Source of the DNA: a virus
Reading direction: 5' to 3' (one strand)
Virus genome (UHGV): UHGV-1578121
DNA: 16,995 nucleotides
Below, in pieces: positions 1,708 to 16,995 of this stretch; the stretch's first letter is position 1, and each line of letters begins with the position of its first letter. The notes beneath the pieces are model-generated. The model did not search any database and had not been told where the DNA came from. It saw nothing but the letters and a program-made list of their open reading frames with translations. A program made the position numbers and the translations under genes.

Positions 1708-1731
1708 CCACAACATGAAAACATGTTGTGG
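1708..1731. promoter_or_regulatory. perfect palindrome CCACAACATG-AAAA-CATGTTGTGG, candidate operator upstream of alpA
   Basis: 10-bp perfect inverted arms with 4-bp spacer read directly from the sequence, about 90 bp upstream of the alpA start on the minus strand. Confidence 0.4.
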
Positions 1732-3476: not shown

Positions 3477-3533
3477 GTGTATAGCCCCCAAAAAACGATT
3501 TTGTCCTATACGCATTACTATACACTTCTGTGT

Positions 3534-3747: not shown

Positions 3748-4968
3748 GTGTCGATCAAGAGCCAAGCATACTTATTTAAAAGAAAAGATGGGATCTGGAT
3801 GTTTCAGATTTTTGTTCCTAAATACTTACGTCATCTTTACCCTTATAAGTTGTGGAGAAAAAGCACATCTACACGAGATCTGAATGAGGCGAGAAGATTC
3901 AGAAACCATCTATTATTAGAATGGGAGGAACTAAAGCGGAAACATAATCCTGATAACCCCGAAAGGAGGTTACAACAAGCTATTGAATCCTTACATTCAG
4001 AGGCAAGGGCCAATAAAAACACGCAAAGAGCCGTAAAACGCGGTTATGCACCGCCTTCCCTGTGCCTAATACGTGACGAATACGCCGAATGCTACAGAGA
4101 GCGTCGTTCATACTCAACACTACAGAAATCAGCAAGGGCCGTTGAGCTATTTTTACAAAGCATTCAGAAAGATGATATTCATATTGAGAAAATAGGCAGA
4201 CGGCTTGTAACAGTATTCTTAGATGACCAGAAGCAACGAGGAGCAGCCGATCAATCTCGTCAAAACTGGCTTACATGCTTAGGATCGCTCTATGAATTTG
4301 CTAAACGCCGTTATGACGGAATACCAGACAGTAACCCTTTTCACGGTCATAACCTCGAAGCACGTCGCACAATCGAGAGTTATCAACCGTTTACACCTGA
4401 ACAAATGCAAAAGCTACTTGATGCAGCGGAGCCGGAGATCAGAAATATTATCTTAATGGGCTTGTTTTCAGGGGCCAGATTAGACGAACTGGCAAGCCTG
4501 AAAAAGTCAGAGATTGTAACTGTGGAAGGAATACGCTGTTTTTATATCAGCAAGAGTAAGACTAAGGCAGGGATCAGACACGTTCCGATACATTCGAGAC
4601 TATCGATTATTGTCGATGAATATTTAAATCATAATTATGGTGAATATTTGTTCCCTCATTCAAATAAAGTAAAAAGAACCGACGGTAAGAAAGGCCCGTT
4701 CTATTCTCAAGCGTTCTCACGTTTACGTCGTAGCGTCTTGCCAATCGCTACAAATAGACAATGCTTTCACAGCTTGCGCGGGATGTTTATCACTTGTCTT
4801 GATCGTGCAGGAGTGCCTGAACAGCGGATCGGAGCCATTACCGGACATACAGAGCAGATAGCTAAAACAGAAGCCTTTCGCACCTACTCACAAGGGGCAA
4901 GCATTCCAGAATTAGCTGAATATGTAGAATTAGTAAAATATGAATTAAATATTGATTTTAAGGCGTAA
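3748..4968 (+). CDS. tyrosine recombinase / phage-type integrase (406 aa), second integrase, divergent from the P4-type one
   Basis: GTG start with AGAGGA upstream; C-terminal catalytic region contains HSLRGMFIT (H-x-x-R) and GHTEQIAKTEAFRTYSQ (His and Tyr); visibly more AT-rich codon usage than the left integrase. Confidence 0.8.
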   Translation: MSIKSQAYLFKRKDGIWMFQIFVPKYLRHLYPYKLWRKSTSTRDLNEARRFRNHLLLEWEELKRKHNPDNPERRLQQAIESLHSEARANKNTQRAVKRGYAPPSLCLIRDEYAECYRERRSYSTLQKSARAVELFLQSIQKDDIHIEKIGRRLVTVFLDDQKQRGAADQSRQNWLTCLGSLYEFAKRRYDGIPDSNPFHGHNLEARRTIESYQPFTPEQMQKLLDAAEPEIRNIILMGLFSGARLDELASLKKSEIVTVEGIRCFYISKSKTKAGIRHVPIHSRLSIIVDEYLNHNYGEYLFPHSNKVKRTDGKKGPFYSQAFSRLRRSVLPIATNRQCFHSLRGMFITCLDRAGVPEQRIGAITGHTEQIAKTEAFRTYSQGASIPELAEYVELVKYELNIDFKA

Positions 4969-4988
4969 AACAACGCCATAAACGTAAT

Positions 4989-5020
4989 AAAAAGGCTTCC
5001 TTGTAATGGGAGCCTCTTAT
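4989..5020. terminator. bidirectional intrinsic terminator between convergent genes
   Basis: aaaaaGGCTTCCttgtaatGGGAGCCtcttatat: imperfect GC stem flanked by an A-run on one side and a T-rich run on the other; sits between the stop of the plus-strand integrase (4968) and the stop of the minus-strand 613-aa gene (5076). Confidence 0.5.
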
Positions 5021-5075
5021 ATGCTTAATTCCTTACAAGAGTGTTTTAGATTGTGATTAAATATTCTCTTTATCA

Positions 5076-6917
5076 TTAACTTGGTGCTTGCCCAGACAGA
5101 GCCGCCAACGTGAAACTACGTTCAAAATCTTGTTGGATACTTCCCACTTTGTAATCGAGGTATGATCCAAGCTGACTACCATCAGGGGCGATATTCACAT
5201 CCACCTTGCTTTCCGGCACGTTTACGACGATGTTCGGTGCATACGTCATAGATGGGGTAGTGTTCAGATCACGGCTAACGTTCTGTTTCAAGGATTGCAC
5301 GTTATCGGATGGGCTGGAATAGTTCTGAATTGCAGTGCCGCCAGTTGTTGGCTTGTCTTCCGTGCCAGGGATAGGTGATAAGCCTAAAGCACTACGACCC
5401 CAATCAACCATACCCCCTACAAACGAGTCCTTATAATACATACCGGACGAATCCAATTGCTCGTGCTTATTCTCTGGATTGATTTTTTGATATGCAGCAG
5501 TGATCCACGATACAGCACCAGCAAAGGCGCTCATCATTTCAGCCGTTGAGCTTCCAAGTTCTCTAAACAGAGGATTGAGATCTTTCAGCATTTGCGCCCA
5601 CTCTTCACCAGCTTTCGCGTCGAATTCTTCACCGAATCCCGTCATGATAGCTTTCTTACTACCTTCCCAGGCCATATTCATATTGGCTTGCACTGCCTGG
5701 AGACGTTCAGCAGCGTCCAGATCCGCTTGTGTATAGGTGGCATTGGCTTTTTGCATCTTAACGATGGTTTTGTTTAGCTCTTCACCGTTACGACTGAAAG
5801 CACCACGGAAATATTGTAAATCATTTCCAAGATCTTCAAGAATATGACCTATTTCCTGATCAGAGAGTCCACGGCGTTCTCCTTCTTTCACTACAGCGCC
5901 CAGGAAACCTAATGGATCAGTCTGGAAACCTTTAACCTGTTCAGGACTCCAACCATATTTATTAAGGATGTTATCAACGGCACCGTTACCGCCAGCCCAG
6001 CGACCTTTTTTAGCGTCCCATTTGGTATTCCCTACGGATTCACCTAAACGCTCTTGAACGTCTTTAAGGTTATCTTGACGTTGAGAGACGGAACTATCAA
6101 CACCGTGTTCTAAGCCGTACTGGTTGAGTGCTAACAGGGCGTTAGTGTTGACGTTTACAGCCTTTGCCTTGCGGTTAGTGTCTGTGATCTTGCTTGCCTG
6201 ATCGGTTACGGTATTGAATATCGCAGCACCGCCGAGAGTAGCAGCAGTGAGAGCAGCACCGCCCGCCATTGCACCTACACTACCGCCCATATGACCGCCT
6301 TTAAGCTGTTTAGCCATATGTGGATACTTGCCACCATCAGCCGCCACCTGGCGAGCTTTTACAGCAGCCGCACGGCGTTCTAACGTGATACGATCACGGA
6401 TCAGGTGATTCATCTTAGCCTGACTAATAACGCCTTTCTCATACGCTGCCGTTTGTGCTTTGATGTACTGTAATGTTTTGTAGTATTGGGCGGAGTCCAT
6501 ACCGTCACCCATACGCCCCTTCTTGATGCCTTCAAGCTGTCTAAAAGCTTGCTGGCGTTTAATCTCTGCTTTCTCTGCTATCGTTGCTTTAGCGCGGATC
6601 TGTTTATCGGCAGCTATCGCGGCTTTAGCCTTCGCTTTAGCTTCTGCCTTTGCCACCTTATCAGCATTCTTCTTATCTGTTTGAGCTTGCTTGTCTGACG
6701 CTTTAGCATCAGCTTTAGCCTGTGCAGCTTTACGGGCCTTTACCAGATCGTTAGCATCGTCTATAGCTCGTTTAGCCTTCTTCCCTTTCAATGTTGGATT
6801 GGTTAGGTTTTCCATTTCTTTCTGAAATTTCTTACCTGCATCGCGTGCTTTCTGTAATGATGCAAAATCAACTTTAAAAACGACGCGGTTCGTTAAGGTT
6901 GAGATGTTCAACTCCAT
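5076..6917 (-). CDS. large Lys/Ala-rich coiled-coil protein with a Gly-rich hydrophobic segment; tape-measure-like / virion structural protein (613 aa)
   Basis: AAGGAAAA RBS before ATG 6917; N-terminal KAxAKA-type low-complexity coiled coil, then GGHMGGSVGAMAGGAALTAATLGGAAIF glycine-rich hydrophobic stretch as seen in tail tape-measure proteins; function inferred from composition only. Confidence 0.4.
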   Translation of the reverse strand: MELNISTLTNRVVFKVDFASLQKARDAGKKFQKEMENLTNPTLKGKKAKRAIDDANDLVKARKAAQAKADAKASDKQAQTDKKNADKVAKAEAKAKAKAAIAADKQIRAKATIAEKAEIKRQQAFRQLEGIKKGRMGDGMDSAQYYKTLQYIKAQTAAYEKGVISQAKMNHLIRDRITLERRAAAVKARQVAADGGKYPHMAKQLKGGHMGGSVGAMAGGAALTAATLGGAAIFNTVTDQASKITDTNRKAKAVNVNTNALLALNQYGLEHGVDSSVSQRQDNLKDVQERLGESVGNTKWDAKKGRWAGGNGAVDNILNKYGWSPEQVKGFQTDPLGFLGAVVKEGERRGLSDQEIGHILEDLGNDLQYFRGAFSRNGEELNKTIVKMQKANATYTQADLDAAERLQAVQANMNMAWEGSKKAIMTGFGEEFDAKAGEEWAQMLKDLNPLFRELGSSTAEMMSAFAGAVSWITAAYQKINPENKHEQLDSSGMYYKDSFVGGMVDWGRSALGLSPIPGTEDKPTTGGTAIQNYSSPSDNVQSLKQNVSRDLNTTPSMTYAPNIVVNVPESKVDVNIAPDGSQLGSYLDYKVGSIQQDFERSFTLAALSGQAPS

Positions 6918-6935
6918 AATATTTTCCTTTATCTC

Positions 6936-7151
6936 TTATTTATTCTGTTTTAATACGTAATATTGCACTGCTTCCATAGCGGAGCAGCCCGTAGCAAAAA
7001 TTCTTTGACGTACAGCGGTATTGCTGATCCCTAAAAACTTACATACTTGTGAGATATTTAGAATATCTTCCGGTAAGGTGGAAACAGCTTTCAAGATTTC
7101 AACTGGATTGTTATTTTGTGTGTTCATGGTTTTCTCACTTTTATTCGACAT
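6936..7151 (-). CDS. small HTH DNA-binding protein (71 aa; possibly starts at internal Met, ATG 7127)
   Basis: Contains ISQVCKFLGISNTAVRQRI, a typical helix-turn-helix of excisionase/AlpA-like small regulators; no clear SD at either candidate start. Confidence 0.45.
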   Translation of the reverse strand: MSNKSEKTMNTQNNNPVEILKAVSTLPEDILNISQVCKFLGISNTAVRQRIFATGCSAMEAVQYYVLKQNK

Positions 7152-7265
7152 TAGAAAACAAAAAGGGCAAAGAGATCAGAGCATATTTTGCGTATATGGT
7201 TAATCCCTTCGCCCTTATTGCCTGTTTTATTTCCAGTCGCACAGGAAACGACTATTAACGCTTTA

Positions 7266-8294
7266 TTACGATACAGTGATCTGTACGGTGAAGCCTACGC
7301 CGTGGTTTACAACCATCTGGCTATTCTCGGTAACTACGTTTACAGCGTCGTTACGTGCTGGGCTAAATGCATAGCTGTAATATTCAGCCGCGCCAGAATT
7401 CAGCAGGTCGAACGTTGAAGACGGAGCGCCGTAGATGTTCTGGTAAACGTTAGAGCCTTTAGCGAACTTCGGAACAGCAACCGCATCAGAAGTCATATGA
7501 GCCAGCAGCAGCGGATCGGTGACTTTGATGATATCAATGTTAGTGCCTGGAATAGTGAAGGTAGTCACACCTGGCAGCAGGGAGCGCACGCTATAAACGA
7601 TGTTTGCGTCATCGGTAGGGCTTGCATACTGGAACGCGTTAACCATGCCAGCACTATAACGGATAGCGTTGAAAGCGGCAGGTTTACAGAATACTACGAT
7701 ACGTTCTACAGCCGCTGCCTGACTTTGGGCCTTAGTGATAACGTCTGTATGCAATTGATCGAATTGCTGGAACACCGTAGAAGGTGTGGTGCTTGATGCG
7801 TCGATGGTTGCAGTCAGAGGAACAGCACTAAACAGATCGCCCCACTGGATCAGCACATCATCAGTTTTAGGGGTGTAAGTTTTACCACTGAACAAGGAAG
7901 CGGCTAATATGCTTTCTTTAGTACGCTGGAAAGCGATGTGATGCTTAGCAACATATTCCGCGTAGATATCTGTCAGAGTTTCTTCAACGGTAGCGCCTGG
8001 CTTACGTTTGCCTTGTACGTCTTGCGGTTTAATCACATCTTCACGCAGGAAGTAAGGGATTTCTACCAGCCATTCTTTACCCTGTTCACGCTTAGTTACG
8101 TTGTGTTCAGAAGAGAAACGAGAGGTTTCTTTGTTGAACAGAGATTCGTTAGTTTCTACCAGTTGGCTAACAGCCACTTTATGAGAACTCACGCCTACTG
8201 GATCAGTAAAGTCGAGAGAAGTTAACAGGAAGTTACGAGAGTCATGCAGACTAAACAGCGGAGCCAGATCGACGGATTCATTACCAATAATCAT
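7266..8294 (-). CDS. major capsid protein, lambda gpE-like (342 aa)
   Basis: AAGGAA RBS; length 342 aa vs 341 for lambda E; collinear local resemblances recalled against lambda E (APLFSLHDS vs DPLFLRLFF; ERIVVFCKPAAF vs VNIIVFDPKGWALF); immediately preceded by a ~120-aa gene in the D position. Confidence 0.55.
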   Translation of the reverse strand: MIIGNESVDLAPLFSLHDSRNFLLTSLDFTDPVGVSSHKVAVSQLVETNESLFNKETSRFSSEHNVTKREQGKEWLVEIPYFLREDVIKPQDVQGKRKPGATVEETLTDIYAEYVAKHHIAFQRTKESILAASLFSGKTYTPKTDDVLIQWGDLFSAVPLTATIDASSTTPSTVFQQFDQLHTDVITKAQSQAAAVERIVVFCKPAAFNAIRYSAGMVNAFQYASPTDDANIVYSVRSLLPGVTTFTIPGTNIDIIKVTDPLLLAHMTSDAVAVPKFAKGSNVYQNIYGAPSSTFDLLNSGAAEYYSYAFSPARNDAVNVVTENSQMVVNHGVGFTVQITVS

Positions 8295-8312
8295 TATGTT
8301 TATTCCTTTATA

Positions 8313-8684
8313 TTAAGATGTGAATACAGTGTTAAAACCAGCCATTTGGAAGCCTTTAGCAGCCAGAGCAGCAATAGCGGCTTCTTTAATAGCGCCTTCA
8401 ACATTCAGAGCATCAGACTTGATGCAAACCAGTCCGGCATTGCTACGCAGCACGTTAACGGTTTTAGCGTCGCCAGCGGATACCGCATCAGACACAACCA
8501 TAAGAACATCGCCGCCGCTTACATATTCAGCGCCGTCACTGGTAATCAGATCGCCGCATTCAACATCAACCGCCAGATCAACGGTAAAAGATTGCACACA
8601 ACCGAACTCATCAGTTGCATATGAAACGATATCGGTAAATGATTTGCGAACTGGAAACAGATCGCTCATATTAATAATAGCCAT
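8313..8684 (-). CDS. putative head decoration protein, gpD-like (123 aa)
   Basis: AAGGAAAC RBS; size and position directly upstream of the E-like capsid gene mimic the lambda D-E pair; Ala/Gly/Val-rich; no confident motif match. Confidence 0.4.
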   Translation of the reverse strand: MAIINMSDLFPVRKSFTDIVSYATDEFGCVQSFTVDLAVDVECGDLITSDGAEYVSGGDVLMVVSDAVSAGDAKTVNVLRSNAGLVCIKSDALNVEGAIKEAAIAALAAKGFQMAGFNTVFTS

Positions 8685-8686
8685 AA

Positions 8687-8902
8687 TTAATAGTTTCCTT
8701 TTTTGGATTGTTTGATTTGTTCTGCTTTTGCTTTAATCAGATCCTGCATAGTAGGTTTCTGTTCATCAGCAGACTTAAAAAGCTTATCACAATGTTTTTT
8801 CAATTCTGTTGGAGTGATCCCCAACATATAAGCCGTAGCATTGAATGTTTCATCAGTGATAATCAATTCTTCGTTACCATTCTTTAGAATTAGATTTTGC
8901 AT
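8687..8902 (-). CDS. hypothetical small protein (71 aa from internal ATG; ORF-track version 8687..8929)
   Basis: Stop overlaps the D-like start region (4-nt spacing); the second ATG has a weak AAAGG upstream, the first has none. Confidence 0.45.
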   Translation of the reverse strand: MQNLILKNGNEELIITDETFNATAYMLGITPTELKKHCDKLFKSADEQKPTMQDLIKAKAEQIKQSKKGNY

Positions 8903-8950
8903 TGTTGCTTTACCTTTTATTCCTAACATTCTTGTTTAGTGCTGATAAAA

Positions 8951-8980
8951 TAAAACCGGAAGGGAAAAGCTTCCGGCTTT
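8951..8980 (-). terminator. rho-independent terminator (minus-strand orientation favoured)
   Basis: Perfect 7-bp stem CCGGAAG/CTTCCGG with 7-nt loop; on the minus strand the stem is followed by TTTTATTTTAT; located immediately upstream of the capsid gene block. Confidence 0.6.
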
Positions 8981-9783
8981 ATGAATACAACATTGAAGGA
9001 TGTTATAGAGTAGTGTTACTAAATCGCAGTTATATGCACTTAAAGAGGTAGGACATATAAGAATAAGATTTCTTATTGTTATAAGCCCTTGAGGGGTGAA
9101 TAACAGGCTTACAGAGGAGTAGGCGCTTAGGAGGTCGCCCCCTTGGAAAGGAATCATTGTAAACCTGTTATTCGTGCGATGGCTAATCGCTGTCTTTCTC
9201 AATGTGGATGCATCGATCAGACTATTCAGGAATCACCTATTAACTTTCAAACCTTTTGGATTCTCATTTTAATAGGAGGCGGTGCCGAGATGATTTCGGG
9301 GATCATCCACGCTTTCGCGTTCTAAGATTGACACCTTAATAAACACCAACAAAAACATATTCAGCTCATTGTTGTCAAGAAACAATATACACCGTTATTT
9401 GTTTATACGGGGTTTATAGAACACTGAAAAACAGTGCTTTTAGAAAGTGTTTCGTGTTTCATGCTTCATAGTTGATTAAAAGATGAGGGGCCAAGTCCAT
9501 AGCCCCTGCATTCTCAAATACACAATATGATAAAGCAATAAAGAATAAGGAAAATAAAATGAAACTATTTTTTAAGAGGAAACAATTTCTAAAAATCACT
9601 GTAAATGGAAAGCGAGGTAGGTTAGATAGGGCGCAACCCCTTGAGGTCTACCCCGCTTTCATGTAGATTAGAATAGGGAGAAGAATTAACACCAGCTAAC
9701 TCCAATTTCCATTCAATACTCTTCATTTATTATTCTAACAGATTTGTCAGTAGAAGTCAATATTTAAATCAATAAAAATTAAT

Positions 9784-9876
9784 TTATTTTTCGTTTGTTA
9801 ATTCCCACTTACCGAACATGCAGTTGCCATCTAAAACAATAGTTTGTTCGTTACCGTTATCATCGGTTACGTGCAT
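9784..9876 (-). CDS. hypothetical small protein (30 aa), translationally coupled
   Basis: ATG overlaps the stop of the upstream 38-aa ORF (TGATG); reads MHVTDDNGNEQTIVLDGNCMFGKWELTNEK; below the ORF-track size cut-off, found by manual translation. Confidence 0.3.
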   Translation of the reverse strand: MHVTDDNGNEQTIVLDGNCMFGKWELTNEK

Positions 9877-9992
9877 CAGGCGGCCTGAGTGTCGAGCTTA
9901 CCAGTGTAGATCTTGCCTACTGTGAAACAATGGCACGATATGCCTTCTTCTGTAAGTGCCAGTAAACGGGCACGTTTGGTTTTTACTGTCAT
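9876..9992 (-). CDS. hypothetical small protein (38 aa), translationally coupled
   Basis: ATG overlaps the stop of the upstream 102-aa ORF (ATGA); reads MTVKTKRARLLALTEEGISCHCFTVGKIYTGKLDTQAA; found by manual translation. Confidence 0.3.
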   Translation of the reverse strand: MTVKTKRARLLALTEEGISCHCFTVGKIYTGKLDTQAA

Positions 9993-10297
9993 TGGTTAAC
10001 CTTATCGATTAGTTCTGCTATGAGTGGTTGAAGATCAGCTACCGCTTGTTGCATGATTTCAGTGGTGTCATTGATCACGATAATCAGGTTACTCAGATCA
10101 TCAGCTTCAACCTGTGCACCTTCGGATTGTTCGCACGCTGCAATAAGTAGTTGCAATGCTTCCCGCGTCGATTCCAGATTAATAACCGCCTGTGTGATGG
10201 TCAGTTCGCTTGGATATTCCATCGCTGCGTTAACTGCTTTCTGCAAGTCAATAACAAGGTCCATCATTTGGATAGTTACGTTGTGTACTTCGCTCAT
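9989..10297 (-). CDS. hypothetical highly acidic alpha-helical protein (102 aa)
   Basis: Provided ORF; strongly acidic composition (many D/E, few K/R); start overlaps stop of the upstream 70-aa ORF by 1 nt. Confidence 0.55.
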   Translation of the reverse strand: MSEVHNVTIQMMDLVIDLQKAVNAAMEYPSELTITQAVINLESTREALQLLIAACEQSEGAQVEADDLSNLIIVINDTTEIMQQAVADLQPLIAELIDKVNQ

Positions 10298-10509
10298 TAT
10301 GCCGCTTCCTCTAATTGTTGTTGTGCTTCACGAGCTTTAGTCAATGCAATCTGTAGCGGTATTCTGTAAGTTGCAATGCTGTCTACAACGTCATCCAGAG
10401 TTGCCAGATCGTTCTCTTCCTTTGCACGTTCAATAATATTTATAAAACATTCTGAAAGAAGCTTAAGATCATGAAAAGTGGTTGTCTCTAAAATTACTTT
10501 GTTAATCAT
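10297..10509 (-). CDS. hypothetical acidic helical protein (70 aa)
   Basis: Provided ORF; coupled to the downstream 102-aa ORF; ends with QQQLEEAA helical tail. Confidence 0.5.
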   Translation of the reverse strand: MINKVILETTTFHDLKLLSECFINIIERAKEENDLATLDDVVDSIATYRIPLQIALTKAREAQQQLEEAA

Positions 10510-10550
10510 TTTATTTTCCTTTTGTTAAGGGTTATATTCAGCCAACGCTG

Positions 10551-10931
10551 TTAATCGTCTATTTTTATTCTTTCAAGCATAAGTAACTCTGTCTCTCTTG
10601 CGCCTGCATACTGCAAACTATTAAGAGCCATGTAGCCACGAAAATGATTCATATCCTGGAAGCCTAAACACTGCCACCTTTTAAGAAGGCTGCTATCAAT
10701 GATTGTTGTTTTGCGTGGGCGTGGATTGAAGTAAACACCATCCATACTTTGAATGATTGATAATTCTTCGTCTGTCAATTCTGGGCTTGGTTCTTCAAGT
10801 ATAAAGATCAATTCCTCGCCTGGTTGTGCATCATGCTCATAATTATATTTGCGAGGATTGTTTAACGCATACTGATCACATGCTTCGCCAATAGCCATTA
10901 TTACGTTTTTCTTGCTTTTTTGCTTGCTCAT
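10551..10931 (-). CDS. hypothetical protein (126 aa)
   Basis: Provided ORF with strong AGGGGA RBS about 7 nt upstream of the ATG; no recognisable motif. Confidence 0.55.
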   Translation of the reverse strand: MSKQKSKKNVIMAIGEACDQYALNNPRKYNYEHDAQPGEELIFILEEPSPELTDEELSIIQSMDGVYFNPRPRKTTIIDSSLLKRWQCLGFQDMNHFRGYMALNSLQYAGARETELLMLERIKIDD

Positions 10932-11043
10932 TGCTTCCCCTTCGTTTTGGTTTTCTTGTTGCAGTGTTAAAAAAGGAAGCGATCATGAATACTAAGAAAA
11001 ATATTAAGCTTTCCATTGTTTCACCCTTCAAGATGTTTGATAG

Positions 11044-11064
11044 TTGTTTGTTGTTTGTTGTTTG
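11044..11064. repeat. tandem heptamer repeat (TTGTTTG)x3 in an intergenic gap
   Basis: Read directly: ttgtttg ttgtttg ttgtttg tttt between the 72-aa and 126-aa minus-strand genes. Confidence 0.6.
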
Positions 11065-11066
11065 TT

Positions 11067-11285
11067 TTAAGCTACAGAGTCGATTCTGAATGCTTTCATA
11101 TGAGTTTTTGTATACTGCAATAATCCTTGTTTACTTAGGTTATCGAGAAGAGCATATAAAAATTGCACACCTACCACACCGGAAAACTCAGAATCAAACA
11201 GAATCATTCCCGTTCTTTCCCGTAAATATTGCAGAAAGATTTCTTGTGAAAATTCGCCATCGAATATGATCACAGTGTCACCCAC
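11067..11285 (-). CDS. hypothetical protein (72 aa); GTG start with no RBS, may be the C-terminal part of a frameshifted gene together with 11270..11527
   Basis: Provided ORF; first codon is GTG with an in-frame stop immediately upstream; overlaps the 85-aa ORF by 16 nt in another frame. Confidence 0.35.
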   Translation of the reverse strand: MGDTVIIFDGEFSQEIFLQYLRERTGMILFDSEFSGVVGVQFLYALLDNLSKQGLLQYTKTHMKAFRIDSVA

Positions 11286-11527
11286 AATTCAAACGGGCTT
11301 ATCTCAAGCAGTCTGAACGTTTGATTATTCACAGCTTCATACTGAATTACCCCAAAATGGCTTAGGTGATTTAGCCAATGCTGCGTGTGTTCTTTACTGT
11401 GCGGTAACTCCTGAAAGCTGATAATCGCGGGTAGCTCATAATTGCTATCAGCAAGCTGTTTTGCCAGTGTGTAGCCGCTTTCTGTAATTTCGAATGTTCG
11501 TTTGTTTAATGTCAGGTTGTATTTCAT
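11270..11527 (-). CDS. hypothetical protein (85 aa); possibly the N-terminal part of a frameshifted/fused gene
   Basis: Provided ORF, tightly packed after the 221-aa gene; 3' end overlaps the next ORF. Confidence 0.45.
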   Translation of the reverse strand: MKYNLTLNKRTFEITESGYTLAKQLADSNYELPAIISFQELPHSKEHTQHWLNHLSHFGVIQYEAVNNQTFRLLEISPFELWVTL

Positions 11528-11539
11528 TTTTTATTCTCC

Positions 11540-12205
11540 TTAAAATGGTATTGAGTCATAGATTTCACTTTCTTTTCTCAGGGCTATCATCAGTGCATTA
11601 AAAGCATCATCTTCAAGAATTATCCTCTTCGAGGTCAGTGCACGTTTTATAAAATTTTCTGTTTCTTCTTGCATAGGCTTTTGGCTGTCTATGGAAATAA
11701 GCCATGTAAAAAGATCAGATTGTTCCGTGATTTCTGCCTGTGTTTCCTGCTCAATAGAGTGTGTCGCTTCTAACGGTTCCTGTGTTTCAGGTGCAGGCTG
11801 TTCTACGTTTACAGAGGTTTTTACGTCTTCCGGTGGTGTGATGTGTGCATCTGTAAAGGGTAATGCTTTATAGAGTGATGTTTGCCCGTCCCGTGCCTCT
11901 ACAGAAAGAACACCCATATCAATAAACATATTTATAATATTACGCACCTGACGATCACTAACCATTCCAATATTAGCTAATGTTTTTTGATTGGCGTAAC
12001 ATTCTTGCCCTTGTTCATTGAACCCAGCTACGTAACTGTAGATTTCAACGGCTGGAAGTGTCGCGGTGTATTCCTTACCTGACGGTGAGAACCACTTTTT
12101 AAACATCTTCAGCCATTGTTCAACTACTACATATGTTTGTTTACTATCTTTCTTATTGAGGCATTGCGCTTTTGCTTCGGCAATTGTTTTGGTGTTTTGG
12201 TTCAT
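11540..12205 (-). CDS. putative replication-initiator-like / winged-HTH DNA-binding protein with acidic C-terminal half (221 aa)
   Basis: Strong AAGGAGG RBS; N-terminal region YSYVAGFNEQGQECYANQKTLANIGMVSDRQVRNIINMFIDMGVL resembles the N-terminal DNA-binding domain of lambda-O-type replisome organisers (recalled pattern); C-terminal part E/Q/T-rich. Confidence 0.45.
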   Translation of the reverse strand: MNQNTKTIAEAKAQCLNKKDSKQTYVVVEQWLKMFKKWFSPSGKEYTATLPAVEIYSYVAGFNEQGQECYANQKTLANIGMVSDRQVRNIINMFIDMGVLSVEARDGQTSLYKALPFTDAHITPPEDVKTSVNVEQPAPETQEPLEATHSIEQETQAEITEQSDLFTWLISIDSQKPMQEETENFIKRALTSKRIILEDDAFNALMIALRKESEIYDSIPF

Positions 12206-12329
12206 TTAGTTCCTCCTTTGTAAGGACTGTAATTAGTAATTCATTAACAAGTTTTGGAATTGATTTCCCTTCTGCCTTTGCACGATTTAACAACGCGTTA
12301 TAAGTTGCAGAATCAAAATTAATATTCAT
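12153..12329 (-). CDS. putative ribbon-helix-helix-like small regulator (58 aa), overlaps start of the 221-aa gene
   Basis: Manual translation MNINFDSATYNALLNRAKAEGKSIPKLVNELLITVLTKEE: beta-strand then helix pattern typical of RHH/CopG-like proteins; strong AAGGAG RBS; 53-nt out-of-frame overlap with the next gene lowers confidence. Confidence 0.35.
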   Translation of the reverse strand: MNINFDSATYNALLNRAKAEGKSIPKLVNELLITVLTKEELNEPKHQNNCRSKSAMPQ

Positions 12330-12352
12330 TTGGCTTTCTCCTTCTCCTGTTA

Positions 12353-12535
12353 TTATTCTTTCTCTACTTCTGCCTTACGCAGTTCATCAATAATTTTTAG
12401 TGCATCGTCAAAGCATTTTTCACGCTCTGGATAACCACAGCGCCGCGCTGTGTTCCTGTTCATCCTTACTTGATGTCGTGTTAGCTCACCTTTTTTAAAT
12501 GCCTCTACGACGTGTTCCGGTGTATACCATTTCAT
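12353..12535 (-). CDS. hypothetical small basic protein (60 aa), first gene of the leftward early operon
   Basis: Provided ORF with strong AAGGAG RBS 6 nt upstream; directly downstream of the long non-coding region. Confidence 0.5.
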   Translation of the reverse strand: MKWYTPEHVVEAFKKGELTRHQVRMNRNTARRCGYPEREKCFDDALKIIDELRKAEVEKE

Positions 12536-13404
12536 AAAAACTCCTTATTTAGATAAAAGAAAAACACACCTTGCAGCCTAACGGCTCAAAGTGCAGTGTT
12601 CTGTGATTTGATTATTTAGATGGAGAGAGATGTTTCTCCCCTCCCTACTTACAATACTACATAACGGCGGCTTTGTCAACCCTCTTTTATAAAAAATTTG
12701 ATCATTTTCAATTTCTTATAATTTTTCTTAGCTTTTTGTGCTGCCTACTCTGGTACAATTCTTCCCTGTTGTCTAAAACGCTCTCAATCGCACTCTGACG
12801 GGGTTTTGATAAAAATAATACATTCCCTTATGTAGAGGTTGTTTATCTCGTCAGAGGCTTATTTAAGGGGCTTATTTTTGATTTATCAGATGATGGAAAG
12901 ATGGTGGATAGATAAACTCTGATTTCAGACATCTTATAAAATACCTGCAAAGTTCTCAGAAGCTCTGTAACGAGCTAATCTATTACCGCTAAGGTGTTTC
13001 CCTTACATTACCCTGTTTAGCTCGCCTACGGCTTGATTTAAGCGGTAGAATCTTATTTAACCTTCAACTACAAAAACCATTCTTTCTTTTTTGTTGTTGG
13101 TTGTTTTGTCATGTTATGCGTTAGCATCCCCAAAGGGTAACGCGACACTAACAACCATTCGCTTACGCTCAGGTTATTGCACAAGTAAATTTCAATCGTT
13201 AGATGGTAGTTAGTTAATTATCGTTCTGCGCACAGCGCAAGACTATTAGCCATACGCAAGTCGTAGGCTATTTGCACATAGTAGATTACATATTCGTTGT
13301 GAGCGGAAAGCGAACATAGATCAGCTAACTACTAACAAAAAACAAAAAACAAAAACTATCTGTTATGACAAGCATCAGTCTAACTTGTGCAAGGTTCTGG
13401 CGAA

Positions 13405-13473
13405 TGCCAATAGATTAAGGGATAGTCGAAGACTCCCTAACGGGTATCCCTATAATTATTCTTTAAAAGATAA
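13405..13473. repeat. copy 1 of a ~70-bp direct repeat containing a nested hairpin (AGGGATA...TATCCCT) and a TATAAT hexamer
   Basis: tgccaatagattaagggatagtcgaagactccctaacgggtatccctataattattctttaaaagataa read directly; near-identical copy at 13588-13657. Confidence 0.7.
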
Positions 13474-13518
13474 AAGAATTTATAAAAGATAGTTTAATTG
13501 TAGTTTAATTATAGTATT

Positions 13519-13571
13519 GTAGGAACTCATTTCCTGGGTAGGTAGGAACTCATTTCCTGGGTAGGTAGGAA
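13519..13571. repeat. 23-bp tandem repeat x2.3 (gtaggaactcatttcctgggtag), each unit with internal palindrome AGGAA-ctcat-TTCCT
   Basis: Read directly; lies between the two copies of the 70-bp direct repeat. Confidence 0.7.
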
Positions 13572-13587
13572 ACCCGCACTATACGAT

Positions 13588-13657
13588 TGCCAATAGATTA
13601 AGGGATAGTCGAAGACTCCCCTAACGGGTATCCCTATAATTATTCTTTAAAAGATAA
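13588..13657. repeat. copy 2 of the ~70-bp direct repeat (one extra C relative to copy 1)
   Basis: tgccaatagattaagggatagtcgaagactcccctaacgggtatccctataattattctttaaaagataa read directly. Confidence 0.7.
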
Positions 13658-14334
13658 TTATAGTTAGTTGTTAGTTTTATTATTAGTATTATTAAAGTAA
13701 TCTTATTGTCAGTCATCGTGACCGACACCCCCCCACACAACATCTGTGCAATGATCTTCTAAAAGTGTTTCTTGCTATCAAAAATTAAAAAAACAGGCTT
13801 AAATTCAAGATTAATTGATGATTAATCCCTATGTAATTCCATACTAAAAATTCAATGAAAAGTAGATTCAAAGTGCAATTCTTACTTTCTTCACTTTTAC
13901 ATTATCATCAGCAAAGCCTTATGTAATGCGGCATATAGCGTATCACTGCAAAATTGTTGCTCAATAAACGTTCTACCATTTGTTGAACGAATGTTCACTC
14001 GTGCACATCTCAAAGAGAATAATTATTTATCATACAATTCCATAATAAGAATTATTATCACTTATAATGCAATACAACCCAGATTCGATACACTTTAGCA
14101 AAGTGTATTCTGTAACCTACTGATCTTTATATACTCAGGCATATATAGACCATTTATCGCTATTTATTGGCTTTTTTTCATCTGCCGAAAATAAATTTCT
14201 TGACAAGACAGATCATTTGTGAGCGGCTTGCATAAAATAAATTTACTTATAAATCAACAAGATATTTCATATTTGTGCCTGCATCAGATCGGGAGGCTTG
14301 ATCTTTGTGTTCAACGATGGTGACGGACGCACCT

Positions 14335-14420
14335 AAATTAAATCGGTTTTAATCGCCTTTAATACCTTTTAATCAGTCTTAATCACCTTTTAATAGCCCT
14401 TTAATCATTTTTGATCATTT
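14335..14420. promoter_or_regulatory. array of eight TTTTAATC-like repeats phased at 10-11 bp (helical repeat): candidate curved DNA / iteron / protein-binding array upstream of the short recombinase gene
   Basis: aatcggtttt aatcgccttt aatacctttt aatcagtctt aatcaccttt taatagccct ttaatcattt ttgatcattt read directly with near-constant 10-bp period. Confidence 0.6.
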
Positions 14421-14517
14421 AGTGCTCTCAACCATAAAACGTATCGTGCAACATATTGAAAATGATCATTTTATGATCAAAACTACTTTCATTGAAACGA
14501 ATAAGGAGAGTATAAAG

Positions 14518-15096
14518 ATGAAAGGTATTAGCCAAGCCCTCAAGAATGTAGACGAGGTAAAAACAGTAGCAGCAGAGCTACAGCGCAATAGTAAAACCAA
14601 CCTGTTTTATTGCTTATGGGTGTTTATGTATGAAAGCGGGTTGCGTGTCTCTGACGTACTCAAGCTAAAATATCAGGATGTTGAGGGGCAATCTCATTTG
14701 AAGATAAAGCAGGAGAAAACCGGAAACGTAGTAAGGCCAAAAGTTACCCCCGCCATGTTGTCAGTGGTGGCACAACGCAAGGCAGAGCAAACGAAGATGC
14801 CTGTAGCTACAGATTTTATTTTCAGTGCTGGCACATTACGCAGTAAAGGCGAAGCCGTAACCCGTAACACGGTATTCACTGAATTTGGGAAGATGGGACG
14901 TAGAGCCGGATTCTCTAATGTGGGATGCCATACGCCACGTAAAAGTCGGGGCCGTGTGATGTTTGATGCAGGGGTAGCTATAGAGACAATAGCCCATTTC
15001 CTGGGACAGACAGATCCGCGCTCTACTATGTATTACATCGGGTATGGTCAGGATGTGCAGGACGATTTAGCAGAGGAGTTTTCTTTAGAATGGTGA
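14518..15096 (+). CDS. short tyrosine recombinase, catalytic domain only, FimB/FimE-like (192 aa)
   Basis: Start moved to ATG 14518, which has AAGGAG 8 nt upstream (ORF-track start 14422 has none); motifs LFYCLWVFMYESGLRVSDVLKLKYQDV (box I Arg), CHTPRKSRGR (H-x-x-R) and LGQTDPRSTMYY (catalytic Tyr); size typical of invertase-type recombinases. Confidence 0.75.
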   Translation: MKGISQALKNVDEVKTVAAELQRNSKTNLFYCLWVFMYESGLRVSDVLKLKYQDVEGQSHLKIKQEKTGNVVRPKVTPAMLSVVAQRKAEQTKMPVATDFIFSAGTLRSKGEAVTRNTVFTEFGKMGRRAGFSNVGCHTPRKSRGRVMFDAGVAIETIAHFLGQTDPRSTMYYIGYGQDVQDDLAEEFSLEW

Positions 15097-15305
15097 TCCA
15101 AATTAAAAGCTTATTTGTGCTGACGTTGGCGCTATTGCCTGTCCTATCGAATGCCGGACAGATAACAATGGTCAACCCACAGGAAGAACAGACGGAGAAT
15201 GGAAAAACGCTGTGCACGTATCAGAACAGCAATTATCTGTTCACTTACGTAACTAAGGGGAAATGCCCTTATGCAAAAACATTTGACACTTCCGCCAAAG
15301 AATAA
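15090..15305 (+). CDS. small secreted protein (71 aa precursor) with predicted signal peptide and two Cys in the mature part
   Basis: N-terminus MVIQIKSLFVLTLALLPVLSNA followed by GQ looks like a Sec signal peptide with AxA-type cleavage site; ATG overlaps the recombinase stop (ATGGTGA), suggesting coupling. Confidence 0.45.
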   Translation: MVIQIKSLFVLTLALLPVLSNAGQITMVNPQEEQTENGKTLCTYQNSNYLFTYVTKGKCPYAKTFDTSAKE

Positions 15306-15310
15306 CGATT

Positions 15311-15730
15311 TTAACGGGATTTTGGATAAATGCTGTTTCTGCAATTAATGCAATACCAACTCGCGGAGTATTGACCAACGGCACGCGAAAAAACCATGTG
15401 TGTTTGCACCTTATCAACTTCAAAGCATTTGGGACAGTAGGCTGTTTCATCGCCTTCTTTCCAGTAAAGTCCATCTTTGAAAGTGAAGGTGTGCTTATCC
15501 TTTAGCTGCTCTTCAAGCTGCTTATTTTTCTGTTCAGCCTCAAAAAGAAGTGCTTGGGTTGTGATTACTTCCATCTTCACACTTGCAAGTTCGCTCATGA
15601 GGTTAGCAAGCTCAAGTTTAAGCGTTGCTTTATCAAGTTCGCCGCCATCATCAGCGAGCTTCTTTGCAATACCTACAGCTTTGTCAATGATACCTACAGC
15701 CGCCGCTGTACTTGCCAACACTCCAGACAT
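15311..15730 (-). CDS. hypothetical coiled-coil protein with C-terminal CxxC...CxxC zinc-ribbon-like motif (139 aa)
   Basis: Provided ORF; RBS TTAGGGGCAAT-ATG; C-terminus CPKCFEVDKVQTHMVFSRAVGQYSASWYCINC; N-terminal half predicted helical. Confidence 0.55.
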   Translation of the reverse strand: MSGVLASTAAAVGIIDKAVGIAKKLADDGGELDKATLKLELANLMSELASVKMEVITTQALLFEAEQKNKQLEEQLKDKHTFTFKDGLYWKEGDETAYCPKCFEVDKVQTHMVFSRAVGQYSASWYCINCRNSIYPKSR

Positions 15731-15752
15731 ATTGCCCCTAATTTTAACAAGT

Positions 15753-16388: not shown

Positions 16389-16403
16389 GTTGCCCCCTAA
16401 CAA

Positions 16404-16964: not shown

Positions 16965-16995
16965 AACCCCCCCTTCTTTTTAGTTTTTCCCTACA

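What the first reader, a model, noticed from the sequence alone, without database searches (positions are those of the whole stretch)
9784..10931. Operon of five tightly coupled small proteins, two of them strongly acidic and helical
Genes of 126, 70, 102, 38 and 30 aa are chained with overlapping stop/start codons (TGATG or ATGA at 10297, 9989-9992 and 9876). The 102- and 70-aa products are strongly acidic and predicted helical, the charge profile typical of DNA-mimic or host-factor-binding inhibitors made early by phages and satellites. None matches a family I recognise, so this is a candidate anti-defence or host/helper-takeover module.
Basis: inference. Interest (0 to 1): 0.65.

Follow-up and report, generated by a model that had tools for sequence, protein, structure and literature searches.

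The report
Core small-protein operon of a phage satellite
These are four real small genes, one broken here, and three of them are a conserved core of an apparently undescribed E. coli/Klebsiella phage satellite with its own capsid and tail-length genes, so they more likely run the satellite's helper-dependent programme than serve as optional anti-defence cargo.

Summary
The 38-aa and 30-aa "genes" are two halves of one 69-aa gene, split by a 1-bp deletion in this strain. All four genes are under purifying selection.

The window is an E. coli chromosomal island next to tRNA-Gly, with the gene set of a ~13.6-kb phage satellite. It has an integrase, a replication module, and its own decoration, major capsid and tape-measure genes. 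Their nearest relatives are in ~150-kb virulent Stephanstirmvirinae myoviruses.

The 126/70/102-aa triad has no Pfam, NCBIfam, PHROG, PADLOC or PDB relative. It keeps its place across the family in Escherichia and metagenomic relatives, with the 70-aa or 126-aa gene missing in a few members. It always lies just upstream of a conserved near-consensus sigma-70 promoter. In the window that promoter is followed by a structured leader and two intrinsic terminators, then the capsid operon.

The triad type tracks that control region, not the capsid or tape-measure type. The 69-aa gene is variable and has phage relatives.

My best reading, by inference only, is a satellite-specific late-switch or hijack module. 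A DNA-mimic anti-defence role is unsupported.

The parts
10551..10931 (-). p126. First annotated gene of the module. It has a basic, poorly ordered N-terminal third and a confidently modelled beta-alpha-beta-alpha-alpha core (residues ~38-105). Conserved motif: PGE..IFILE..SPEL.D.EL..IQSM.GVYF.PR.RK.TII....LKRWQ.LGF.
10297..10509 (-). p70. Moderately acidic (pI 4.5), Pro/Gly-poor protein, probably a helical hairpin. Its stop shares one base with the p102 start (TAATG).
   Evidence: dN/dS 0.04-0.35. A profile search finds 465 relatives in E. coli and Klebsiella spp.; none carries an informative name (a few are labelled 'ABC transporter ATPase'). No PDB or PHROG family. Absent in the Escherichia sp. 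and Pseudenterobacter members L015 and L016.
9989..10297 (-). p102. Acidic protein (pI 4.05, net charge about -14), predicted helical bundle. It is the fastest-evolving member of the triad, yet pI 4.1-4.5 is kept in all positional equivalents.
   Evidence: Identity to the K_EC180 version is only 24%, against 48% for p126 and 64% for p70. dN/dS 0.10-0.39. The profile matches only designed helical bundles in the PDB. Pairwise hhalign to the distant positional equivalents gives E 3e-4.
9784..9992 (-). p69 pseudogene. It was read as separate 38-aa and 30-aa ORFs. A 1-bp deletion at about 9885/9886 splits a 69-70-aa gene. This is an accessory gene with phage relatives.
   Evidence: Alignment with the intact copies in SCU-102 and RM10740. 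PHROG 27862 matches both halves. tblastn gives 41% identity to hypothetical proteins in 71 phage records, mostly Phapecoctavirus-type. The gene is absent in L006 and is a 77-aa variant in L005.
10876..11016 (-). Unannotated 46-aa ORF with one hydrophobic helix and a basic tail (MESLIFFLVFMIASFFNTATRKPKRR...). It overlaps the p126 start in another frame and probably belongs to the same operon.
   Evidence: An ORF of the same kind starts ~76-88 nt upstream of the p126 ATG in 11 of 12 divergent family loci, despite sequence divergence. The window copy has a Shine-Dalgarno sequence, GAAGGGTG. Gene callers found it in L012, L034 and L035. Coding status is not proven.
9732..9760 (-). Near-consensus sigma-70 promoter (TTGACT-17-TAGAAT, with extended -10 TG) immediately after the operon's last stop codon.
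   Evidence: A promoter of this kind sits at the same place in nearly all family loci examined: TTGACT-17-TATAAT, TTGACA-17-CATAAT and similar, with a weaker TTTGCA-18-TATAAT in the L006 group. The predicted start region carries a conserved AGGG(G) motif in most members; the window copy has diverged there.
9486..9725 (-). Structured leader or non-coding RNA that ends at intrinsic terminator T1 (9486-9507).
   Evidence: MFE -82 kcal/mol, z = -5.8 against shuffles. T1 was found. In the alignment, the L005 and L006 groups have a different sequence at this position that by eye still reads as a hairpin plus T-run; those variants were not folded. No Rfam family. No phage BLAST match.
8944..8982 (-). 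Intrinsic terminator T2 (13-bp stem plus U-run), about 15-40 nt upstream of the first gene of the capsid operon.
   Evidence: Folding gives -21 kcal/mol, z = -5.3. Analogous terminators precede the late operon in L012 and L016 (clear) and L005 (weaker, z -1.8). No clear hairpin was found in the 71-nt L006 stretch folded. No minus-strand promoter was found between T2 and the gene.
12651..12679 (-). Candidate early promoter (TTGACA-17-TATTGT). It would drive p60, an RHH ORF, Rep, p85, p72 and then this operon.
   Evidence: All genes from 12535 down to 9784 are co-oriented, and no minus-strand terminator was detected before T1.

Best explanation
**What it is (well supported).** The region is the distal part of the early, leftward operon of a ~13.6-kb phage satellite integrated beside tRNA-Gly. 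It holds three satellite-specific core genes (p126, p70, p102). It may also hold an unannotated 46-aa membrane peptide. The fourth annotated-size gene (p69) is an accessory gene with phage relatives and is frameshifted in this strain.

**How it most likely works (inference).** The triad acts as the satellite's switch and hijack module. It would be made after helper infection, together with the replication proteins. It would then act on the control region directly downstream, which consists of:
- a strong, constitutive-looking sigma-70 promoter;
- a structured ~240-nt leader;
- two intrinsic terminators, the second abutting the first late gene.

The triad would let RNA polymerase read through into the satellite's own decoration, capsid and tape-measure operon. 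This is a lambda-Q-like or N-like arrangement by position.

In this model p126 is the nucleic-acid-binding specificity factor. It has a lysine/arginine-rich, flexible N-terminus and a novel alpha/beta core with a KPRKRK-type motif. The translationally coupled acidic helical proteins p70 and p102 are protein-binding partners. They would contact RNA polymerase or a helper factor.

**Shown:** gene reality, synteny, the orphan status of the proteins, the promoter and terminator anatomy, and linkage of the triad type with the control region.

**Inferred:** every functional step.
For: - **Satellite context.** The island has an integrase, a Rep-like HTH protein, its own decoration, MCP and TMP genes (a Dit-like gene in some relatives), and no portal or terminase. 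The nearest phage relatives of the MCP (26% identity), the TMP (30%) and p69 (41%) are Stephanstirmvirinae. Two stretches are 90-95% identical in DNA to Justusliebigvirus early genes.
- **Core status.** The order p126-(p70)-p102, then a promoter-bearing gap, then small gene-decoration-MCP-small gene-TMP, recurs widely. It is found in E. coli, another Escherichia sp., Pseudenterobacter and Kluyvera, in IMG/VR contigs, and in metagenome scaffolds whose p70 clusters with Klebsiella proteins. An Enterobacter ludwigii locus keeps a p126-like gene, an acidic 101-aa ORF, an MCP and a TMP.
- **Purifying selection** on all four genes.
- **Coupling.** Overlapping stops and starts link p70, p102 and p69.
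- **Conserved control region.** A near-consensus promoter follows the module in nearly all members. The leader folds with z -5.8. T1 is present. T2 sits just before the late genes, with no room for a promoter, and terminators occupy the same position in L012, L016 and, more weakly, L005.
- **Linkage.** The triad type co-varies with p85/p72 and with the 850-nt control region. That region is 85-87% conserved even in L010, whose MCP is only 20% identical. The triad type does not co-vary with the MCP, decoration, TMP or Rep type.
- **p126 N-terminus.** It is K/R-rich and poorly ordered in all family members.
Against: - No homology or fold match ties any of the three proteins to known antiterminators, sigma-binding proteins or nucleic-acid binders.
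- Co-variation with the adjacent control region may be simple physical linkage.
- A helper-encoded factor could equally well be the antiterminator or late activator.
- Natural variants lack p70 (L015, L016) or p126 (L008), so not every member is indispensable, unless those copies are decaying.
- The leader could be a functional sRNA in its own right. The RNAalifold consensus across groups was weak.
- No expression data exist.
Confidence: 0.35

Rival explanations
1. Helper-interference factors. The small proteins bind and block or redirect helper proteins, such as the helper's own capsid, scaffold, late-transcription or replication proteins. They would play no part in switching on the satellite's late operon. 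Precedents (recalled, not tested here) are SaPI PtiA/PtiM, P4 epsilon and PLE CapR/Gpi.
For: - Most characterised satellite-specific small proteins act by binding helper proteins (established knowledge of SaPI, P4 and PLE).
- The triad has no relatives in phages or cells.
- p102 evolves fast while keeping its acidity. That fits an arms-race interface.
- Helper candidates were identified.
Against: - The triad type does not track the MCP or TMP type, which presumably marks the helper type.
- dN/dS gives no sign of positive selection overall.
- No binding partner can be named.
Confidence: 0.2
2. Packaging-specificity module. p126, alone or with p70 and p102, recognises a pac or cos site in the adjacent 850-nt ORF-free region and recruits the helper's large terminase. 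This would be a small-terminase-like or Rpp/Ppi-like function.
For: - The satellite has no terminase genes and must be packaged by the helper's.
- The triad co-varies with the adjacent conserved non-coding region.
- p126 has a basic N-terminus.
- Small-terminase genes commonly sit beside their pac site, upstream of head genes (established knowledge).
Against: - No Pfam or PHROG terminase hit.
- The non-coding region carries a promoter, a leader and terminators, which suggests transcription control.
- The ends of the circular contigs are not in this region.
Confidence: 0.15
3. p102 and p70 are acidic DNA-mimic or host-factor-binding anti-defence proteins, in the manner of Ocr or ArdA. They would protect the satellite or helper from restriction or other defence systems.
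For: - p102 has pI 4.05 and net charge about -14 over 102 aa, and acidity is kept in all positional equivalents.
- The proteins are small, orphan and expressed early by position.
- The neighbouring accessory gene p69 is shared with virulent phages.
Against: - No match to Ocr, ArdA, Gam or any other Pfam, NCBIfam or PADLOC model.
- The genes are a fixed syntenic core rather than variable cargo.
- Acidity is shared by most proteins of the island.
- p70 is only mildly acidic.
- The profile resembles generic helical bundles.
Confidence: 0.08
4. Capsid scaffolding or size-determination proteins for the satellite's own major capsid protein, in the manner of phi29 gp7 or SaPI CpmB. Those are small, acidic, helical dimers.
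For: - Size, charge and helical character resemble internal scaffolds.
- The satellite encodes its own MCP and would need a small shell for 13.6 kb.
Against: - The triad type is uncoupled from the MCP and decoration type. L005 and L010 combine window-type triads (81-97% for p126) with an MCP only 20% identical. L024, L026 and L027 combine an ~80% MCP with a ~50% p126 and a 28% p102.
- The genes are separated from the capsid operon by a promoter and two terminators and lie in the early operon.
- The helper-type phage carries its own 371-aa gene at the protease/scaffold position.
Confidence: 0.05

Closest known systems
Lambdoid late control: Q gene, then PR' promoter, 6S leader, tR' terminator, then late genes. 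Also lambda N with its arginine-rich N-terminus.
   Same: - Small genes at the end of the early or delayed-early operon sit immediately upstream of a strong constitutive sigma-70 promoter.
- A short terminated leader transcript follows.
- Structural genes lie beyond the terminators, with no promoter of their own.
- p126 has a basic, disordered N-terminus.
   Different: - No sequence or fold similarity to Q or N proteins.
- There are three proteins rather than one.
- No demonstrated Q-binding element, pause site or nut site.
- The element is a satellite of virulent phages, not a temperate phage.
Vibrio cholerae PLE satellites of the virulent myovirus ICP1
   Same: - A chromosomal island of similar size.
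- It appears tied to a large virulent myovirus.
- It carries many orphan small proteins, plus a non-coding RNA candidate.
   Different: - PLE hijacks the helper's coat protein and remodels it with TcaP, whereas this element encodes its own MCP, decoration protein and TMP (a Dit-like gene in some relatives).
- It uses a tyrosine integrase, not a large serine recombinase.
- No protein homology.
- Helper dependence has not been shown here.
Satellite P4 (sid-delta-psu late operon, epsilon, plasmid state)
   Same: - Enterobacterial host and ~11-14 kb size.
- A tyrosine integrase next to a tRNA gene.
- It can exist as a circular episome.
- Small early proteins that manipulate the helper.
   Different: - No Sid, Delta, Psu, alpha or epsilon homologues in Pfam, NCBIfam or PHROG scans.
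- P4 has no capsid or tail genes.
- The helper class is different.
Capsid-forming PICIs (cf-PICIs) and satellite phages with their own capsid genes (for example MiniFlayer; Aci01-2-Phanie is recalled from memory)
   Same: The satellite encodes its own HK97-fold major capsid protein.
   Different: - cf-PICIs carry a full head and packaging set (terminase, portal, protease, connectors) and steal only tails.
- This element has only decoration plus MCP and TMP (a Dit-like gene in some relatives), with no portal or terminase.
- The triad has no counterpart in them.
DNA-mimic anti-restriction proteins (Ocr, ArdA)
   Same: Small, acidic and early-expressed.
   Different: - No family match.
- Lower charge density than I recall for Ocr (from memory, not computed).
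- A core syntenic position rather than cargo.

Membership tests
Ocr / ArdA-type DNA-mimic anti-restriction proteins | Sequence membership in Pfam Ocr, ArdA, Antirestrict or Gam models | tested here: not met
   hmmscan against Pfam at E<=0.1 gave no such hit for p126, p70, p102 or the two p69 halves. NCBIfam and PADLOC were also negative.
Ocr / ArdA-type DNA-mimic anti-restriction proteins | A surface array of carboxylates that mimics the B-DNA phosphate backbone | not testable with these tools
Only the bulk charge is known: pI 4.05 and 4.5.
Ocr / ArdA-type DNA-mimic anti-restriction proteins | Accessory, variable distribution among related elements, as is typical of anti-defence cargo | tested here: not met
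   The triad is positionally fixed across the family in several genera. Only p69 is variable.
Lambdoid Q-type late antitermination module | Regulator gene directly upstream of a constitutive late promoter, followed by terminator(s) and then structural genes | tested here: met
   Promoter at 9760-9732 directly after the operon; T1 at 9507-9486; T2 at 8982-8944; then the capsid operon. The promoter position is conserved in nearly all family loci.
Lambdoid Q-type late antitermination module | Homology or fold similarity to Q-lambda, Q21 or Q82 | tested here: not met
Lambdoid Q-type late antitermination module | Sigma-70-dependent promoter-proximal pause element (a -10-like hexamer in the initially transcribed region) and a Q-binding element | tested here: inconclusive
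   A -10-like hexamer (TATAAT, TAGAAT, AAGAAT, TTGAAT) follows the AGGG(G) motif about 15 nt after the -10 box in several members (read by eye). There is no statistics and no functional test.
Small terminase / Rpp / Ppi packaging-specificity proteins | Small-terminase fold or family membership | tested here: not met
   No Pfam or PHROG terminase hit. No structural match in PDB or BFVD.
Small terminase / Rpp / Ppi packaging-specificity proteins | Binding to the element's pac or cos site, or to the helper's terminase | not testable with these tools
   This requires mapping of virion DNA ends, or binding assays.
Internal scaffolding / capsid-size proteins (phi29 gp7, SaPI CpmB) | Co-evolution and linkage with the cognate major capsid protein | tested here: not met
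   The mosaic table shows window-type triads paired with an MCP only 20% identical (L005, L010), and divergent triads paired with an ~80% identical MCP (L024, L026, L027).
Phage satellite (generic) | An integrative or episomal element of ~10-20 kb with integration and replication genes, an incomplete virion gene set, and relatedness to a phage group that could supply the rest | tested here: met
   Integrase, Rep-like protein, and decoration, MCP and TMP genes, but no portal, terminase, sheath or tube. Circular forms of 13.6-13.8 kb exist. Structural genes are nearest to Stephanstirmvirinae. Actual helper-dependent mobilisation was not tested.
P4-like, PICI, cf-PICI and PLE families | Hallmark genes: P4 has Psu, Delta, Sid and alpha; PICI has AlpA or Stl with Pri-Rep and TerS or Rpp; cf-PICI has terminase, portal and protease; PLE has a serine integrase, RepA and TcaP | tested here: not met
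   None of these was detected by Pfam, NCBIfam or PHROG scans of the satellite's ORFs. The AlpA-like gene and P4-type integrase at window 1-3515 belong to a separate neighbouring island that is absent in MJ-T.

The most novel reading that the evidence does not exclude
The p126/p70/p102 triad is a previously unknown three-protein late-gene switch of a new class of phage satellite. It would work by processive antitermination or polymerase appropriation. It would act on a conserved promoter, leader RNA and terminator cassette. The satellite class is found in E. coli, Klebsiella and other Enterobacteriaceae. It parasitises large virulent Stephanstirmvirinae myoviruses and brings its own capsid, decoration and tape-measure genes. 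It exists in both integrated and integrase-less circular forms.
Probability: 0.25. Interest if true: 0.8.

Novelty: new variant of a known kind. Interest (0 to 1): 0.6.

Why it matters
Stephanstirmvirinae phages (phAPEC8-, phi92- and ESCO5-like) are common in E. coli and Klebsiella phage-therapy collections. A chromosomal or episomal satellite that exploits them would affect therapy outcomes, gene transfer and phage resistance. The elements appear in about 2% of complete E. coli genomes, including O26:H11 EHEC. It would be an enterobacterial counterpart of the PLE-ICP1 system.

The triad is the family's signature set of orphan proteins. It sits at the junction between the replication module and the capsid module. 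Working out its function would show how this kind of satellite times or redirects virion production. It could also reveal a new way of overriding transcription terminators or hijacking helper machinery.

The immediate practical corrections are:
- The '38-aa' and '30-aa' genes are one pseudogene.
- Two small genes may be missing from the RefSeq annotation seen here: a membrane peptide and an RHH protein.

Tried and rejected
**Family scans.**
- Pfam, NCBIfam, PADLOC and PHROG scans of all the small proteins gave only chance-level hits, apart from PHROG 27862 for p69.
- Scans of distant family members of p126, p70 and p102 also gave nothing.

**PDB and structure.**
- PDB sequence and profile searches found nothing for p126, p70 or p69. 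For p102 they found only designed helical bundles.
- AF2 of p126 with a shallow, E. coli-only alignment failed (pLDDT 45).
- The AFDB50 library was unavailable.

**Phage similarity.**
- tblastn of the concatenated four proteins against 50,697 phage records matched only p69.
- BLAST of the 850-nt non-coding region against phages found no match.
- A k-mer comparison with a helper-type late region gave only chance-level hits.

**RNA.**
- Rfam searches, at gathering threshold and at E<=1, found nothing.
- RNAalifold on the leader across groups gave a weak and unconvincing consensus, because the groups align poorly. I make no claim of a covariation-supported structure.

**Hypotheses and literature.**
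- The scaffolding hypothesis was rejected by the mosaic analysis.
- Literature searches for a described satellite of Stephanstirmvirinae, or a satellite with capsid plus tape-measure genes, found nothing matching. The library is incomplete, so prior description cannot be excluded.
Full report
**1. Observation**

On the minus strand of the window there are ORFs of 126 aa (10551-10931), 70 aa (10297-10509), 102 aa (9989-10297), 38 aa (9876-9992) and 30 aa (9784-9876). The 126-, 70-, 102- and 38-aa ORFs have Shine-Dalgarno sequences. The 30-aa ORF has none.

The last two ORFs are not separate genes:
- PHROG family 27862 (65 positions) matches the 38-aa ORF over its positions 1-35 and the 30-aa ORF over positions 43-63.
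- In E. coli SCU-102 and RM10740 the same locus carries a single annotated gene of 70 or 69 aa.
- The DNA alignment shows a 1-bp deletion in the window and in strain MJ-T, at about 9885/9886.

The operon therefore has four genes, and the last is a pseudogene here. Pairwise Nei-Gojobori dN/dS among relatives is 0.09-0.22 for p126 (close relatives), 0.04-0.35 for p70, 0.10-0.39 for p102 and 0.04-0.16 for p69. All four are genuine protein-coding genes.

p102 is acidic (pI 4.05). p70 is moderately acidic (pI 4.5). Most proteins of the island are acidic, so the charge is not distinctive.

**2. Where the operon sits**

The region is 100% identical to E. coli PSJ-16 and 99.8% identical to MJ-T. It lies in an island between the ETT2 / glycoside-hydrolase side and tRNA-Gly/actS.

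The island's genes, almost all on the minus strand, run in this order:
- a candidate early promoter at 12679-12651;
- p60;
- a 221-aa HTH_36 protein resembling replication initiators;
- p85 and p72;
- the operon under study;
- an 850-nt stretch with no conserved ORF;
- a 71-80-aa gene;
- a 123-aa gene at the position of the helper-type head-decoration gene;
- a gpE-type major capsid protein (PF03864);
- a 71-aa gene;
- a 613-aa tape-measure-like protein (PHROG 16051, E 3e-67);
- a divergently oriented tyrosine integrase.

Some relatives add a Dit-like "baseplate" gene. There is no portal, terminase, sheath or tube gene. This is the gene content of a phage satellite.

The nearest phage relatives of these genes are ~150-kb virulent myoviruses of the Stephanstirmvirinae (Phapecoctavirus, Justusliebigvirus):
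- MCP, 26% identity over its full length.
- TMP, 30% identity.
- p69, 41% identity.

In those phages the order is large terminase, portal, a methyltransferase-annotated gene, a 371-aa gene, decoration protein, MCP and, further on, TMP followed by a 235-aa protein. Two short stretches of the island are 90-95% identical in DNA to early genes of Justusliebigvirus phages. That points to recent exchange between them. I infer that these phages are the likely helpers. This is not shown.

**3. Distribution and forms**

The operon is present at 80% coverage or more in 61 of 5,426 complete E. coli genomes. Divergent versions occur in roughly 40 more.

Word-based protein searches with p102 and p126 found only E. 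coli proteins. Many of these lie on contigs of 13.2-14.6 kb. Three such contigs from independent draft assemblies are circular. One has a 111-nt terminal overlap. In the other two, joining the ends restores an intact 615-aa TMP ORF. All three lack the integrase and carry other genes in its place, including one with an Imm_superinfect domain. The element therefore also exists as an integrase-less circular molecule of about 13.7 kb.

A full HMMER profile search with p126 recovered about 20 distant representatives of 94-135 aa. Their genomic contexts, together with loci fetched from GTDB genomes and IMG/VR, show the same order:
- p60, a replication gene and p85;
- p126, (p70) and p102;
- a promoter-bearing gap;
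- a small gene, decoration, MCP, a small gene and TMP;
- an integrase.

This order is seen, in whole or in part, in Escherichia sp., Pseudenterobacter, Kluyvera and metagenomic scaffolds. A short Enterobacter intestinihominis contig shows the p126-p102 pair. An Enterobacter ludwigii locus keeps a p126-like gene, an acidic 101-aa ORF, an MCP and a TMP. A p70 profile search found 465 proteins in E. coli and Klebsiella species, none with an informative name.

p70 is missing in two members (L015, L016). p126 is missing in one (L008). p69 is variable or absent. The triad, above all the p126 + p102 pair, is thus a positional core of the family. p69 is cargo.

**4. What the proteins look like**

- No Pfam, NCBIfam, PADLOC or PHROG family matches p126, p70 or p102, or their distant relatives.
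- PDB sequence and profile searches are empty for p126 and p70.
- The p102 profile matches only de novo designed helical bundles and coiled coils. That supports a generic antiparallel helical bundle and says nothing about function.
- p126 modelled poorly with a shallow alignment (pLDDT 45).
- With distant homologues it modelled acceptably (pLDDT 73). The core at residues 38-105 scores 82-91 and has the order beta-alpha-beta-alpha-alpha. The K/R-rich N-terminal third has low confidence.
- The positional equivalents of p102 diverge to 15-28% identity but keep pI 4.1-4.5. Pairwise hhalign between the two groups gives E 3e-4.

**5. Anatomy downstream of the operon**

A near-consensus sigma-70 promoter lies directly after the last stop codon. 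In the window it is TTGACT-17-TAGAAT with an extended -10 TG (9760-9732). A promoter of this kind is conserved at the same place in nearly all family loci examined, although the surrounding sequence diverges. The L006 group has a weaker TTTGCA-18-TATAAT, and in L005 it was read by eye.

The transcript would begin near a conserved AGGG(G) motif. It folds into stable hairpins (-82 kcal/mol, z -5.8). It ends at an intrinsic terminator, T1 (9507-9486). In the alignment, the L005 and L006 groups have a different sequence at this position. By eye it still reads as a hairpin followed by a T-run, but those variants were not folded.

A second canonical terminator, T2, lies at 8982-8944. It has a 13-bp stem plus a U-run, and folds at -21 kcal/mol with z -5.3. 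It sits only about 15-40 nt before the first gene of the capsid operon. Analogous terminators occupy that position in L012 and L016, and more weakly in L005. No clear one was found in the L006 stretch that I folded. No promoter fits between T2 and the late genes.

Expression of the satellite's decoration, capsid and TMP operon must therefore depend on terminator read-through. This is inferred from the anatomy.

Rfam has no matching family. Phage genomes have no similar DNA.

**6. Linkage**

A table of protein identities across 22 loci shows extreme mosaicism. The triad type co-varies with p85 and p72 and with the 850-nt control region. That region is 85-87% identical across window-type elements, including L010, whose MCP is only 20% identical.

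The triad type is uncoupled from the MCP, decoration, TMP and replication-module types:
- L005 and L010 pair window-type triads with the alternative MCP.
- L024, L026 and L027 pair an ~80% identical MCP with a ~50% p126 and a 28% p102.

This argues against a scaffolding or size-determination role tied to the capsid protein. It fits a protein set that works on the adjacent DNA or RNA control region. It also fits plain physical linkage.

**7. Interpretation**

*High confidence.* This is the distal part of the early operon of a satellite. Three of its genes are family-defining core genes of unknown biochemical function. The fourth is a phage-shared accessory gene, inactivated here.

*Low confidence, by inference.* The arrangement has four parts in order:
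- small early genes;
- a constitutive promoter;
- a terminated leader followed by a second terminator;
- the structural genes.

This is the arrangement of lambdoid Q/PR'/tR' control. The basic flexible N-terminus of p126 recalls RNA-binding antiterminators such as N. I therefore favour a late-switch module.

In that model p126 recognises the promoter or leader. The translationally coupled acidic helical p70 and p102 contact RNA polymerase or a helper factor. There is no homology to Q or N, and the helper could supply the antiterminator instead.

The rivals are helper-protein interference, packaging specificity, anti-defence DNA mimicry and scaffolding. They are weighed in the dedicated fields.

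The genes are core rather than cargo, and no anti-defence family matches.

**8. Novelty**

The element differs from the known satellite families:
- P4-like satellites have no capsid or tail genes.
- PICIs differ in their hallmark genes, none of which was detected here.
- cf-PICIs carry a full head and packaging set.
- PLE steals the helper's coat protein and uses a serine integrase.

None of their hallmark genes was detected. Literature searches in the held library found no description of a satellite of Stephanstirmvirinae, or of a satellite with capsid plus tape-measure genes. The library is incomplete, so an earlier description cannot be excluded.

I classify the finding as a new variant of a known kind. 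It is a satellite early or hijack module made of orphan proteins.

**9. Limits**

- There are no expression or interaction data.
- p70 and p102 were not modelled.
- The helper relationship is inferred from similarity only.
- The leader RNA structure is supported by thermodynamics and by terminators that recur at the same positions with different sequences. It is not supported by convincing covariation.

Noticed in passing
window 3748-16995 (continues ~0.5 kb beyond the window, to tRNA-Gly): The whole island looks like an undescribed satellite family. It has a tyrosine integrase, a replication module and its own decoration protein, gpE-type MCP and tape-measure protein (a Dit-like protein in some relatives). 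It has no portal or terminase. Its structural genes are nearest to virulent ~150-kb Stephanstirmvirinae phages, and two stretches are 90-95% identical in DNA to Justusliebigvirus early genes.
   Followed up: partly
L009, L010, L011 (13,683, 13,786 and 13,624 bp contigs from E. coli draft assemblies): These are circular, integrase-less versions of the same element. One has a 111-nt terminal overlap, and in the other two, joining the ends restores the 615-aa TMP ORF. In place of the integrase they carry an Imm_superinfect-domain gene and other small genes, and a ~490-aa helicase-type replication gene. This suggests a plasmid-like or excised replicative form.
   Followed up: partly
window 8930-9783, minus strand: This is an 850-nt stretch with no conserved ORF. 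It contains a family-wide near-consensus sigma-70 promoter (9760-9732), a stably folded ~240-nt leader or ncRNA (z -5.8), terminator T1 (9507-9486) and terminator T2 (8982-8944). It has no Rfam family and no phage match. It is 85-87% conserved among window-type elements regardless of capsid type.
   Followed up: partly
window 10876-11016, minus strand: This is an unannotated 46-aa ORF with one hydrophobic helix and a basic tail, and a good Shine-Dalgarno sequence. It overlaps the p126 start in another frame. An ORF of the same type occupies the same position in 11 of 12 divergent family loci. It may be a small membrane protein of the operon.
   Followed up: partly
window 12156-12332, minus strand: This is a 58-aa ORF between p60 and the Rep-like gene, not annotated in the RefSeq relatives fetched: MNINFDSATYNALLNRAKAEGKSIPKLVNELL.... 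By eye the sequence looks like a ribbon-helix-helix protein, but this was not tested. The DNA is 95% identical to gene bas60_0101 of Justusliebigvirus phage PaulScherrer. It could be the satellite's regulator, and it marks recent exchange with a helper-type phage.
   Followed up: partly
window 12535-14422: This is a 1.9-kb ORF-free, AT-rich stretch (33-37% GC). It has a ~75-nt direct repeat (13401-13473 and 13584-13657, 97-100% identical) flanking a perfect 23-nt tandem duplication (13519-13564). It may be the replication origin or a regulatory region. It has no Rfam hit.
   Followed up: partly
window 1-3515: A second, unrelated integrative element abuts the satellite's integrase end. It has a 417-aa integrase that by eye resembles the P4 type, a 67-aa protein that by eye resembles AlpA, and two further ORFs; none of these was scanned against any family library. 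It is absent at this position in MJ-T and SCU-102, where a glycoside hydrolase family 15 gene is the neighbour.
   Followed up: no
window 14422-16964: This is a variable cargo region between the ORF-free stretch and tRNA-Gly. It holds a short 224-aa integrase-family protein, a 71-aa protein with a hydrophobic N-terminus and ORFs of 139, 216 and 186 aa with only PHROG 'unknown function' hits. Other family members carry different genes here, such as a serine recombinase, a DUF4145 protein, YecR or Hok.
   Followed up: no
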